Assembly (NCBI GenBank): GCA_030324005.1
Contig: JARDVH010000073.1
Coordinates: 38,728,593 to 38,792,592 of the forward strand
DNA: 64,000 nt
Direction of reading: 5' to 3'
Origin: Negaprion brevirostris
Lineage: Eukaryota
Made by a program: the position numbers. The stretch's first letter is position 1, and every line of letters starts with the position of its first letter. This document shows positions 36,001 to 39,000 of this stretch, piece after piece.

Positions 36001-39000
36001 GGATAGGAATAATAAACAGCGGGAAATAATGTTGTTGAACTAGAATAAAAAAAAACACTTCCCATACCTTGAACCATTTAAAGCCAAAGTTGTTGCACTC
36101 ATGCAAACTTTCATTAACATGCTTCACACGGGCATTGTGCAGCATAATGGAATAAAAGAAAGAGAAGCATGCAAAGTATTTACTAGAAGATCAGGAAAAA
36201 GCACTTAAATGCAAATTCCATTGTTTTACAACTATTTACACACATTTACATTCATTTAATAATCATTTGTAGGTCACATTTTACAGACATATTTGAACAG
36301 AAGGTACGCAGGTTGTTGTCAATGTAATGTAAAAGCTAGAATGCCTTTAAAAATAGGCTACTATAAATTTAAGAAAAATATTCCTTGCCATTAATTATTC
36401 TAATAAAATGTAAGCAAGTTGAAAAAGATCAGAAATCCTTAAGAATATCTTTGCTATGTTCCTTTTCCCAAAATCTTTTGTTTTCATTCCATTCCTCATC
36501 ACCCAATGCTTCTCAAGAAAAGGAAGTAATAAAAGTAATAAATTCTTAATGCTGCTCTTGTGTTGTCTAATGCAAAACTCACAAACCAACTCCACCATGA
36601 CTCAAGGGACATGATTGATCATGTTCACATAATTAGTCACATAGCATGTTTCAGAACTATTCTCCAGCTACAGAAGTTAATTTTTGAGATGTTACAGTCA
36701 AGTAATCGCTATCATTTCTGTACATTCCATCCAAAATGGCAGAACAGAGGGCTTTTTTCTGTCATGACGTTAAACAATATGGCCATTCAATACATGCACA
36801 CAAATACATCTATTTCACTAAGATCTTACATAATCTTAATGCATAGTTCATCCAGACTTTCTTTTCAATGTATACCAGTTGACAAGCACTCTTGATCAAA
36901 TACTGAAAACAGGCTAAAATGGATTCATCTAGTTTAATATTGAATATATGATAACGAAATATTCACTGTCTAATCATGTACAATGGAAGTAAGATTGCTT
37001 GCTTTGATGAAGATATTCACTGCATGTAGATTCACCGGGGACAATCTTAACTCACTGCTATTGGCAATAATGACCTCAAAATGGTGTTGGGATAGGTTTC
37101 CAACCCTTTTAATACAAGTCCAACTGTTCTATTTTTACAGGAGTTGACAACTGGATGGCTAAATTCTCGGCCTCTTGGCTAAGATCAAGTGCAGTATCGA
37201 CATGCTGCACTTCGTTGAAGTCATTAGGTTACATTTCAGCTTCATTTGAAGCAATTTTTTAAAGCGGCATCTGGGCCTTTGGGCTAAGATGCAAATTAGA
37301 TCAAGCCTTGGAGGTGGAGCTACACCTACTCCAAACAGCTTGNNNNNNNNNNNNNNNNNNNNNNNNNNNNNNNNNNNNNNNNNNNNNNNNNNNNNNNNNN
37401 NNNNNNNNNNNNNNNNNNNNNNNNNNNNNNNNNNNNNNNNNNNNNNNNNNNNNNNNNNNNNNNNNNNNNNNNNNNNNNNNNNNNNNNNNNNNNNNNNNNN
37501 NNNNNNNNNNNNNNNNNNNNNNNNNNNNNNNNNNNNNNNNNNNNNNNNNNNNNNNNNNNNNNNNNNNNNNNNNNNNNNNNNNNNNNNNNNNNNNNNNNNN
37601 NNNNNNNNNNNNNNNNNNNNNNNNNNNNNNNNNNNNNNNNNNNNNNNNNNNNNNNNNNNNNNNNNNNNNNNNNNNNNNNNNNNNNNNNNNNNNNNNNNNN
37701 NNNNNNNNNNNNNNNNNTGAATTCAGTGAGCTGCATCAAAGCTTTGTTTTGGTACCAGCAATTGGCAAATTCTATTTAAAGCAGGACTGGATCTCAAATT
37801 AGCTCTGGATTCTTATGCCAATCCCATCTACTGAGTTGGATGCCCAAAAGATAAATTCCATCCCATTGATTCATGCACAGCATGTAATGGAGGGGAATTT
37901 CACTGCTTGTCAAAATGAAGAATGTATCTGGGTGGAGAATGTTTTTCCAACTTTCAAAAAACATTTGTTCTACTAGTAAGTTGATAGTAATGTAGAATGC
38001 AATAAAATTAACTATTTGAGTAACTTGCTCAGTTATTGTTTAATCCTGGGTTTTGGAAATGTCAGAACAAAACATTGTCTAACTAATGATGCAGTAACTG
38101 AGGCAAACAGTTAAGAAAAGCTAGATAAGAACCTGATGAGGGAGAAAAGAATAGAAACATTTACACAAACGGTTAGATGAAATAGGGAAGGAGGATTATG
38201 TACAGTATAAACAGCTGTTTGAAATAATAGGGCCAAATGGCATTGTAAATTCCATGTAATGCCAACCCAATAAGAAATGGCACAAAAACAAATGGCAAAC
38301 TAGGTGACATAATCAAAACCAAAAAAAAAACAAAAGAACGCAGTACCTGGGAATTACATAAGCTTCTCCTTTGCAAATTATTTCTACCTTCAAAGTGGCA
38401 CATAGCAATCCTTGATGTTCGCTTCATATCCATATCAACAGAAATCATTGCAAATGAAATCAAAGTAGAATCGCAGAAATGTTACTATGCAGCAGAAGGT
38501 CATTCGGTTCATCATATCTACACCAGCTTTCCAAATGAACGCTCATTTAATGCCATTCTCCCGCTTTCCCTCTGTAACCGTGTACATTTCTCCATTTTAG
38601 ATAACTGACTCATTCCCTTTCAAATGCTTCAATTGAACCTGCCTCCACCACTTTCAGGTATTGCATTTCAGATCTTAATCACTCTGTGGAAAAGTTTTCC
38701 TCATGACACTTTTGCTTCTTTTGAAGTGCATGACATCACCATGTTACTTGCACCTTGCTTCCAATGTCTCCTGGAAACCAAGGCAGAAAAATGGTAGGCA
38801 CAAAAGTGGGCATACAGCTGATGCATTGGATCCTAACCCGTAGGCATGCTTGTCCAAACACTCCACAATTTGATTGGACTAATGGAAAATTTTGGATGTT
38901 GCACCTGAAAAAGCACCACAATCTCAAGCAATGTTCAGAAGAGATAGAACATGGAACATTACAGCGCAGTACAGGCCCTTTGGCCCTCGATGTTGCGCCA

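What the first reader, a model, noticed from the sequence alone, without database searches (positions are those of the whole stretch)
37164..37342. U2 snRNA-headed structured element: candidate undescribed shark U2-derived SINE or small RNA
Seen: TTCTCGGCCTCTTGGCTAAGATCAAGTGCAGTATC (37164-37198) matches U2 snRNA nt 6-40 at 33/35 positions. The sequence then switches to non-U2 sequence that is densely base-paired, with hairpins at 37187-37212, 37239-37252 and 37302-37342 and an AATTTTTT tract. Known: U1/U2-headed SINEs (SINEU) were described in crocodilians, and Keno (Tx1) and Utopia LINEs insert into U2 near nt 37-38. Inference: this looks less like a simple truncated U2 pseudogene than a distinct U2-derived RNA or retroposon. 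The gap of about 375 nt directly after it suggests a multicopy element that failed to assemble.
Basis: partly seen in the sequence, partly recalled or inferred. Interest (0 to 1): 0.85.

Follow-up and report, generated by a model that had tools for sequence, protein, structure and literature searches.

The report
Composite U2 snRNA-derived sequence relic
A 184-base stretch of non-coding DNA, probably from a shark, holds two pieces copied from the front end of the U2 splicing RNA, set in unrelated sequence that pairs strongly with itself; it is most likely a dead retro-copied mosaic and not a working gene, and whether it belongs to a repeat family could not be tested here.

Summary
Positions 37164-37198 match U2 snRNA positions 6-40 at 33 of 35.

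Three things were missed:
- A second U2 5'-end piece lies 105 nt downstream at 37270-37290, 18/21 to the first, with none expected by chance.
- The 32 nt after the first piece pair with it far better than chance (0 of 300 shuffles, 0 of 297 real-sequence controls).
- The Rfam U2 model aligns end to end at 41.9 bits, below its 46-bit gathering score. The 5' 47 nt alone give 32.8 bits and the 3' 143 nt alone give nothing.

It is not a working U2 gene, not a uniformly decayed full-length pseudogene, and not an in-place Keno/Utopia insertion.

My best reading (0.45) is a retro-copied mosaic made by reverse-transcriptase template switching onto U2 RNA. The layout is closest to crocodilian SINEU-1 and SINEU-3.

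Whether it is a multicopy SINE stayed untestable: no eukaryotic DNA or repeat library was at hand, and the protein-database proxy failed its positive control. The adjacent gap says little, since the window has 17 N runs. Interest is modest.

The parts
37164..37198 (+). First U2-derived piece, U2 positions 6-40 (stem-loop I plus the branch-point recognition region, which here reads GCAGUA instead of GUAGUA).
   Evidence: It matches the Rfam U2 consensus at 33/35. The 5' part alone scores 32.8 bits. cmscan starts its alignment at 37159, but only 2 of the 5 positions 37159-37163 match.
37169..37230 (+). Long imperfect hairpin. U2 positions 11-39 pair with the 32 nt that follow the U2 piece. The core is 11 bp, 37187-37197 with 37202-37212, and it buries the branch-point recognition hexamer.
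   Evidence: The MFE fold has 24 pairs: 8 GC, 10 AU, 6 GU. The energy is -28.9 kcal/mol, against -16.5 +/- 2.6 when only the non-U2 arm is shuffled (0 of 300 as good) and 0 of 297 when it is replaced by other real 37-mers of the window.
37239..37252 (+). Small 5-bp hairpin.
37253..37263 (+). Sm-site-like A/U tract (AAUUUUUUAAA), which is also a T6 run. It sits at about the distance from the 5' end where U2 has its Sm site.
   Evidence: cmscan aligns it to the U2 Sm region. The motif RATTTTT occurs 41 times in the window (0.65 per kb), which gives about a 1.4% chance of one falling in a 21-nt slot. It lacks the G that normally follows the U run (recalled consensus).
37267..37305 (+). Second U2 5'-end-like piece. 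37270-37290 corresponds to U2 positions 7-27. An 11-nt insertion follows at 37291-37301, then four bases at 37302-37305 that equal U2 positions 28-31. 37267-37292 folds as a 10-bp hairpin.
   Evidence: It is 18/21 identical to 37165-37185, with 0.00 matches expected in 100 shuffles of the window. Smith-Waterman gave 0 of 300 shuffles as good. It is listed as D1 and I6. By eye it is 19/21 to the Rfam consensus. cmscan used it as 'stem-loop III', which I take to be an artefact.
37302..37342 (+). 3' hairpin of 14 bp, which runs to the last base before the N run.
   Evidence: cmscan aligns only its ends to U2 stem-loop IV and skips the interior.
37343..37717 (.). N run of 375. The 3' end of the element is not readable. 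The run was left untouched.
37156..37162 (+). A 7-mer identical to 37176-37182 (U2 positions 18-24), directly upstream of the first U2 piece. It may be a third, tiny U2-derived scrap or chance.
   Evidence: Read. No statistics were run.

Best explanation
The locus is a dead, retro-copied mosaic of U2 snRNA 5'-end fragments and unrelated sequence.

Proposed mechanism (inferred): a LINE reverse transcriptase copying some other RNA reached its 5' end and jumped onto abundant U2 snRNA at about position 40. It copied U2 back to about position 6 and stopped short of the capped, modified 5' end. An earlier event of the same kind left the second, more damaged U2 piece that now lies inside the element. 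The product was integrated into AT-rich non-coding DNA.

This gives the layout 'U2 head - spacer - older U2 head - body'. That is the layout published for crocodilian SINEU-1 subfamilies.

Shown: the two U2 pieces, their edges, the lack of U2 identity elsewhere, and the strong + strand folding.

Inferred: reverse transcription, template switching and integration.

Open: whether this is one copy of a repeat family (a SINEU-like SINE; I give that sub-claim about 0.2-0.25) or a one-off chimeric retrocopy.
For: 1. U2 positions 6-40 match at 33/35, while positions 1-5 match at 2/5 and nothing matches after position 40. By my own hypergeometric arithmetic on that alignment, the clustering of mismatches at positions 1-5 has p of about 0.009. 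Uniform decay of a whole U2 copy cannot give this pattern.
2. A second U2 5'-end piece in the same orientation lies 105 nt downstream.
3. 37200-37342 matches no Rfam family at E<=10.
4. PMC4494074 (sections 11, 12, 16, 18) describes SINEU-1 as built by recurrent 5' addition of short U1 or U2 pieces plus partial duplications. It states that heads do not always start at snRNA position 1 (passage), and it attributes the additions to template switching.
5. The 5'-terminal piece is the better preserved of the two: 33/35, against 19/21 plus an 11-nt insertion. That is the order recurrent 5' addition predicts, though the difference is not significant.
6. The locus lies among other retroelement debris: an RT fragment with a weak RVT_1 match and a SINE-like repeat with two copies.
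Against: - No target-site duplication was found. The upstream 65 nt against 37197-37342 and against the post-gap 400 nt score no better than shuffles (327 of 500 and 278 of 500 shuffles as good).
- No A-tail or LINE-type tail can be seen, because the 3' end lies in the N run.
- There is no second copy in the window and no partner LINE was identified.
- Template switching does not explain why the 32 nt after the first U2 piece are complementary to it.
- It also does not explain why 6 of that hairpin's 24 pairs are G-U while none of the 5 opposed unpaired positions is A-C. My own estimate for that bias is p of about 0.03. It hints at selection on the + strand RNA.
- The Sm-like tract sits at the U2 Sm distance (about 1.4% by chance), which suggests more U2 ancestry than this model needs.
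Confidence: 0.45

Rival explanations
1. A one-off 3'-truncated U2 pseudogene fragment was later rearranged at the DNA level. Replication slippage or template switching made a partial direct copy and a partial inverted copy nearby. No retroposon family is involved.
For: - Direct and inverted partial copies of the same U2 stretch lie within 130 nt.
- There is an 11-nt insertion whose ends repeat four bases (read).
- A 7-mer repeat lies 20 nt upstream (read).
- According to the discussion of PMC4494074, tailless 3'-truncated snRNA retropseudogenes are a known class.
Against: - The three pieces differ greatly in likeness to U2. The direct pieces are 33/35 and 19/21. By my own reading of the fold, the inverted arm is only about 17/29 identical to a perfect complement. 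Copies of equal age should have decayed equally.
- No TSDs were found.
- The U2 piece does not start at position 1.
Confidence: 0.15
2. It is a remnant or non-autonomous derivative of a U2-targeting LINE (Keno of the Tx1 clade, or Utopia). The U2 head is the co-transcribed upstream half of the target site, and 37199 onward is the element's 5' UTR.
For: - U2 identity stops at position 38-40.
- Passages of PMC4640811 place the Utopia and Keno insertion so that downstream U2 starts at position 39.
- PMC4494074 reports a Tx1 family with a U2 head like those of SINEU-1.
Against: - No RT or endonuclease domain was found in the 10 + strand ORFs scanned (of the 24 listed, between 37803 and 42452).
- No ORF of 110 aa or more with LINE features follows on the + strand.
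- No U2 3' half follows the gap or lies elsewhere in the window.
- U2 positions 1-5 and an upstream PSE are missing, so this is not a resident U2 gene.
- The second U2 piece ends at position 27-31, not 38.
Confidence: 0.12
3. It is a full-length but highly diverged U2 copy, either a pseudogene of a variant U2 or an internally remodelled U2 like SINEU-3. It would keep the U2 layout of stem-loop I, a single-stranded region, two hairpins, an Sm site and two 3' hairpins.
For: - cmscan aligns model positions 1-192 to 37159-37330 at 41.9 bits, about 9 bits more than the 5' part alone.
- The Sm-like tract is at the right distance.
- Two 3' hairpins are present and the total length is about 180 nt.
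Against: - The 3' 143 nt alone give no U2 hit at E<=10.
- The 9-bit difference is partly the truncation penalty.
- Stem-loops IIa and IIb and the interior of stem-loop IV are skipped as local ends.
- The 'stem-loop III' is really a copy of stem-loop I.
- The score is below the gathering threshold.
Confidence: 0.1
4. It is a functional U2-like small RNA gene. For example, a ~100-nt transcript could start near 37159-37164 and end at the T6 run, with its U2-like 5' end partly hidden in a hairpin.
For: - The + strand folds exceptionally well and better than the - strand.
- The long hairpin has an excess of G-U pairs.
- The U2 part is far better preserved than its surroundings.
- A TATA-like octamer lies at 37130-37137 and a T6 run about 95 nt downstream (read). 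That this arrangement suggests a promoter is recalled, not tested.
Against: - No match to the human-type PSE consensus within 3 mismatches lies anywhere near -55. There were 8 matches in the window against 9.7 expected, and none falls between 31737 and 46185.
- There is no conservation or expression evidence.
- The branch-point hexamer is mutated and base-paired.
- The region is AT-rich, so TATA-like strings are common.
Confidence: 0.05
5. It is a contig-end assembly artefact, or a U2-derived tandem repeat that continues into the gap.
For: - The element ends exactly at a contig end.
- This draft has 17 N runs, and two 100-N gaps have identical 27-29 nt on both sides, which shows unmerged contig ends.
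- PMC4640811 mentions a U2-derived satellite, U2_sat, in sea squirts.
Against: - TRF finds no tandem array here.
- Apart from the 21-25 nt U2-like segment, the two 'units' share no similarity.
- The post-gap sequence is not significantly similar to the element (79 of 300 shuffles as good).
Confidence: 0.08

Closest known systems
SINEU-1 and SINEU-3 of crocodilians (Kojima 2015, PMC4494074)
   Same: - A short U2 5'-end piece heads otherwise non-U2 sequence.
- More than one snRNA-derived piece lies in series, as in the 'recurrent 5' addition' and partial duplications described for SINEU-1.
- The head need not begin at snRNA position 1.
- An oligo-T run lies inside the element.
- SINEU-3 keeps a U2-like overall shape with an internal replacement.
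(Sections and passages read.)
   Different: - The host is not a crocodilian, and the paper states that no SINEU was detected outside crocodilians.
- Copy number, poly-A tail, TSDs, the Tx1-Mar partner and the Mariner-N4 target preference are all unseen here.
- No sequence comparison with SINEU consensus sequences was possible. The paper's figures and supplements were not seen.
Tailless, 3'-truncated snRNA retropseudogenes and snRNA chimeric retrocopies made by LINE template switching (as summarised in the discussion of PMC4494074)
   Same: A U2 fragment truncated at its 3' side is fused to unrelated sequence and lies in an intergenic or intronic position.
   Different: - As summarised there, those copies are 3'-truncated and flanked by TSDs. 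That they also begin at snRNA position 1 is my recollection, not from a call.
- This fragment starts at about position 6, shows no TSD and carries a second U2 piece.
5' junction of U2-targeting LINEs Keno (Tx1 clade) and Utopia (PMC4640811)
   Same: The U2 identity breaks at position 38-40, next to the published 38|39 insertion site.
   Different: No LINE body, no downstream U2 half, no intact U2 start and no promoter are present.
U2 spliceosomal snRNA gene (Rfam RF00004)
   Same: Stem-loop I and most of the branch-point region are nearly identical. An Sm-like tract and terminal hairpins lie at similar distances.
   Different: - It scores below the gathering threshold.
- The branch-point hexamer is altered.
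- Stem-loops IIa and IIb are absent.
- The 3' domain is unrelated by sequence.
- No PSE was found.

Membership tests
U2 snRNA gene (RF00004) | Reaches the Rfam gathering score (46 bits) | tested here: not met
   0 hits in gathering mode. 41.9 bits in E-value mode.
U2 snRNA gene (RF00004) | Intact branch-point recognition hexamer GUAGUA, single-stranded | tested here: not met
   Position 34 is C (37192) against the consensus U. The hexamer is paired in the MFE fold.
U2 snRNA gene (RF00004) | Stem-loops IIa and IIb, and a 3' domain (III, IV) homologous to U2 | tested here: not met
   The model regions are skipped as local ends. 37200-37342 alone gives no hit at E<=10. The 'SL III' is a copy of SL I.
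U2 snRNA gene (RF00004) | Sm site | tested here: inconclusive
   An A-U6-A tract lies at the right distance, but without the G of the recalled consensus.
U2 snRNA gene (RF00004) | Proximal sequence element near -55, and a 3' box after the 3' end | tested here: inconclusive
   No match to a human-type PSE consensus (recalled) within 3 mismatches lies near 37095-37115. The PSE of cartilaginous fish is unknown to me. The 3' box position lies in the N run and is not readable.
SINEU (snRNA-headed SINE) | 5' head derived from U1 or U2 snRNA | tested here: met
   U2 positions 6-40 match at 33/35. A second U2 piece is present.
SINEU (snRNA-headed SINE) | Many dispersed copies that share the same non-snRNA body and junctions | not testable with these tools
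   No eukaryotic DNA collection or repeat library was available. Only 1 copy lies in 64 kb. The protein-database proxy gave 0 hits, but its positive control also gave 0.
SINEU (snRNA-headed SINE) | 3' poly-A tail and target-site duplications | tested here: inconclusive
   The 3' end lies in the N run. No direct repeat better than shuffles links the upstream flank to later sequence.
SINEU (snRNA-headed SINE) | Partner Tx1-type LINE and shared target preference | not testable with these tools
   This needs genome-wide copies. No Tx1-like ORF is adjacent.
Keno/Utopia insertion in a U2 gene | U2 5' flank ends at position 38 and a LINE follows | tested here: not met
   The break at 38-40 fits. But no RT or EN domain or long ORF follows on the + strand.
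Keno/Utopia insertion in a U2 gene | U2 3' part (from position 39) downstream, and U2 position 1 with a promoter upstream | tested here: not met
   No U2 signal lies in 37718-38500 or elsewhere in the window. Positions 1-5 match at 2/5. No PSE was found.
Tailless 3'-truncated snRNA retropseudogene | Starts at snRNA position 1 (recalled), truncated at the 3' side, flanked by TSDs | tested here: not met
   It is 3'-truncated, but it starts at about position 6 and no TSD was detected.

The most novel reading that the evidence does not exclude
The element is one copy of an undescribed family of U2-headed retroposons (SINEU-like) in cartilaginous fish. That would be the first such family outside crocodilians. 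Its RNA would be selected to fold the U2 head back onto the body in a long G-U-rich hairpin, perhaps for recognition or processing by a Tx1/Keno-type partner LINE. A bolder and less likely variant (about 0.05) is an expressed U2-mimicking small RNA.
Probability: 0.22. Interest if true: 0.55.

Novelty: new member of a known kind. Interest (0 to 1): 0.3.

Why it matters
If this is only a one-off chimeric U2 retrocopy, it is ordinary genomic debris. Its main use is as a warning to annotators: the Rfam U2 model aligns end to end here, even though only the first 40 positions are really U2.

If it turns out to be multicopy, it would extend snRNA-headed SINEs from crocodilians to cartilaginous fish. 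That would support the view that template switching onto U2 near the Keno/Utopia target position is a recurrent way of making new retroposons. The U2-pairing hairpin would then be a concrete structural feature to test for a role in mobilisation.

Tried and rejected
- **Copy number through protein databases.** The open 60-aa minus-strand frame across the element found 0 candidates among proteins of 33-105 aa. It found 0 proteins at E<=0.001 among 1.84 billion representatives. A matched positive control, the 60-aa translation of the SINE-like repeat at 35425-35604, also found 0. The method is therefore blind to non-coding repeats, and the negatives carry no weight.
- **Other copies in the window.** blastn found none for the element.
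- **Similarity between the element and its flanks.** The post-gap sequence, the upstream sequence and their reverse complements are no better than shuffles.
- **TSD search.** Negative.
- **Tandem repeats.** None at the locus.
- **Gap flanks as a repeat indicator.** 27 of 34 flanks have no second copy in the window, so adjacency to a gap says little.
- **HDV-like ribozyme idea.** I considered, by analogy with R2 elements (recalled), a ribozyme using the U2 flank as P1. By eye there was no suitable pairing partner, Rfam gave no ribozyme hit at E<=10, and one literature search returned 1 unrelated paper. I dropped the idea.
- **Taxon.** The protein-atlas query with the RT fragment gave only 'Eukaryota', with commonest phylum Arthropoda or Chordata depending on the row. 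'Shark' therefore rests on my recollection that the SINE-like and LINE fragments resemble chondrichthyan repeats.
- **Pfam on the coiled-coil exon-like ORF.** It gave only a sub-threshold coiled-coil match.
- **Literature searches.** One search was badly designed (any 2 of 5 terms) and is uninformative. Searches found no paper describing a U2-headed repeat in cartilaginous fish. One search returned 1 paper, unrelated by its title. One search returned 0.
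Full report
**What is there**

The sequence was read. Window 37164-37198 (+) aligns without gaps to positions 6-40 of the Rfam U2 model. 33 of 35 positions are identical to the printed consensus. The mismatches are at 37174 (position 16, in the loop of stem-loop I) and 37192 (position 34, inside the branch-point recognition hexamer).

cmscan begins its alignment at 37159, but only 2 of those 5 extra positions match. 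After position 40 identity stops.

In E-value mode the U2 model aligns end to end (model 1-192, 37159-37330) at 41.9 bits, E 3.5e-7 for a 443-nt search. U2's gathering score is 46, so the whole-window scan at curated thresholds lists nothing (0 hits).

The T-run is at 37253-37260.

**How much of it is really U2**

- The 5' part alone (37120-37205) scores 32.8 bits.
- The rest alone (37200-37342) gives no hit to U2 or to any other of the 4227 families at E<=10.
- In the full alignment, the model regions for stem-loops IIa and IIb and the interior of stem-loop IV are skipped as local ends.
- The extra ~9 bits come from an A-U6-A tract aligned to the Sm site and from two 3' hairpins. Part of that difference is the truncation penalty.
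- The Sm-like tract is at about the right distance from the 5' end. The motif RATTTTT occurs 41 times in the window (0.65 per kb), so one falling in a 21-nt slot has a chance of about 1.4%.

So there is a hint of a U2-like layout, but no independent sequence evidence for U2 beyond position 40. A whole U2 copy that decayed uniformly cannot be 94% identical over 35 nt and unrecognisable over the next 140.

First, a second U2 5'-end piece.
- 37270-37290 is 18/21 identical to 37165-37185.
- 0.00 such matches were expected in 100 dinucleotide shuffles of the window.
- A local alignment of the two halves of the element beat 300 of 300 shuffles.
- The repeat finder lists the pair with a spacing of 105 nt.
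- By eye it is 19/21 to the Rfam consensus.
- It is followed by an 11-nt insertion and then by four bases that equal U2 positions 28-31.
- cmscan used this segment as 'stem-loop III'. I read that as an artefact of its being a copy of stem-loop I.

Second, the 32 nt after the first U2 piece are complementary to it.
- The fold pairs U2 positions 11-39 with 37202-37230 in 24 pairs: 8 GC, 10 AU, 6 GU.
- With the U2 part held fixed, the energy of -28.9 kcal/mol was reached by 0 of 300 shuffles of the partner and by 0 of 297 other real 37-mers from the window.
- None of the 5 opposed unpaired positions is A-C.
- If only the non-U2 arm mutated, I estimate that such a bias toward + strand wobble pairs has p of about 0.03. 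This is post hoc and weak.

The whole 184 nt fold at z -5.1 on the + strand (0 of 200 shuffles) and at z -3.0 on the - strand. With a mononucleotide shuffle the element has z -6.1. Sixty background windows have a median of -0.63, and the two lowest are -5.3 and -4.6.

**Tests of the alternatives**

*Working U2 gene.* Five points count against it or could not be checked.
- The score is below the gathering threshold.
- The branch-point hexamer is altered and base-paired.
- Stem-loops II are absent.
- No match to a human-type PSE consensus (recalled) lies near -55. There were 8 matches in the window against 9.7 expected, none near the locus.
- The 3' box position is inside the N run.

*In-place Keno/Utopia insertion.* The break at U2 position 38-40 sits next to the published site. 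Passages of PMC4640811 say that U2 downstream of Utopia starts at position 39 and that Keno uses the same site. But the rest does not fit.
- No LINE-like ORF follows on the + strand.
- 10 + strand ORFs, out of the 24 of at least 50 aa listed, were scanned against Pfam at E<=0.1. They gave no RT or endonuclease match.
- No U2 3' half follows the gap.
- The U2 piece lacks positions 1-5.

*Tailless truncated retropseudogene.* No TSD was found, the start is at about position 6, and this reading does not explain the second piece.

*Tandem repeat.* TRF finds none, and the post-gap sequence is not significantly similar to the element (79 of 300 shuffles as good).

**Copy number, the crux, stayed untestable**

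- Inside the window there is one copy.
- The SINEU families number 137 to about 7,700 per crocodilian genome (PMC4494074, section 13). At that density one copy in 64 kb says nothing.
- As a proxy I searched the 60-aa open minus-strand frame of the element in two protein collections and found nothing. A matched control from a repeat that does have two copies in the window also found nothing. The proxy is therefore uninformative.
- The gap argument is weak. The window has 17 N runs, and 27 of 34 gap flanks have no second copy in the window. A contig end 12 nt beyond the end of the cmscan alignment remains compatible with a repeat boundary.

**Best reading**

The layout is U2 head, spacer, older and more damaged U2 head, then body. 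The head starts a few bases inside U2, and an oligo-T run lies inside the element.

That is what Kojima describes for SINEU-1: recurrent 5' addition of U1 or U2 pieces and partial duplications, which he attributes to template switching (sections 11 and 18). SINEU-3 is a U2-shaped element with an internal replacement (section 12).

I therefore favour a retro-copied mosaic made by LINE reverse-transcriptase template switching onto U2 snRNA (0.45). The question of a family (about 0.2-0.25) versus a one-off copy stays open.

The U2-pairing hairpin and the Sm-like tract are not explained by this mechanism. They are the reason I keep a small probability for an RNA-level function.

**Literature**

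- PMC4494074: abstract and outline, passages, sections 11, 12, 13, 16 and 18. Figure 1B and the supplements, which hold the head alignments, were not seen.
- PMC4640811: passages only.
- PMC5786205: passages only.
- Kojima states that no SINEU was detected outside crocodilians.
- My searches for a U2-headed repeat in cartilaginous fish found nothing relevant. One search gave 5 papers, none on this by title. One search gave 0. One search listed 15 of 157. One search gave 1 unrelated paper. One search was badly designed.
- These searches cover only the held library. Repbase and Dfam entries were not searchable.

**Context and housekeeping**

- I do not take the contig for human. It carries an RT fragment (weak RVT_1 match) and a two-copy SINE-like repeat that I recall as typical of cartilaginous fish.
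- The taxon itself was not established by a tool. One search gave only Eukaryota, with commonest phylum Arthropoda or Chordata depending on the row.
- An exon-like coiled-coil ORF on the minus strand near 47990-48130 was scanned on its own.
- The N runs were left as they are.

Noticed in passing
window 35400-35600 (+) and 42395-42581 (-): Two copies of a ~190-nt SINE-like repeat, 74% identical to each other. From memory it resembles the tRNA-derived SINE common in sharks and rays. This is the only hint about the taxon, and no tool confirmed it.
   Followed up: partly
window 53580-54335 (+); also 53070-53218 against 54436-54585: A LINE reverse-transcriptase fragment with a weak RVT_1 match of 17.2 bits against a 29.6-bit cutoff. 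A 150-nt stretch is repeated at 90% identity across the 100-N gap at 54336-54435.
   Followed up: partly
window 38924-39431 (-): ORFs that look like the C-terminal end of another LINE on the minus strand, interrupted by a 100-N run. One piece of it gave no Pfam match.
   Followed up: partly
window ~47990-48130 (-), inside ORF 47870-48304: An exon-like stretch of charged coiled-coil sequence that I recall as resembling ELKS/ERC/CAST active-zone proteins. Pfam gave only a sub-threshold coiled-coil match. If a minus-strand gene spans the region, the U2-like element is antisense in one of its introns.
   Followed up: partly
gaps 44700-44799 and 50740-50839: Both 100-N gaps have identical 27-29 nt on their two sides. 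The neighbouring contig ends probably overlap and were not merged, a sign of a draft assembly.
   Followed up: no
window 16701-16884 and 5001-5184 (+): These two background windows fold almost as unusually well as the element, with z -5.3 and -4.6. No inverted repeat of 14 nt or more was found in either.
   Followed up: partly
window 37289-37296 and 37130-37137: An exact match to the octamer motif known from snRNA enhancers lies inside the element, within and next to the 11-nt insertion. A TATA-like octamer lies about 30 nt upstream of the U2 piece. Both motifs are recalled, were read, and may well be chance in this AT-rich region.
   Followed up: no
window 37162-37341 (-): The minus-strand reading frame is open across the whole element, 60 codons. 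No relatives were found. An open frame of this length is expected fairly often by chance over six frames.
   Followed up: yes
window 37763-37893 (+): A weak, chance-level match to the lncRNA family RMST_5: 15.6 bits against a gathering score of 58, E 1.9.
   Followed up: no
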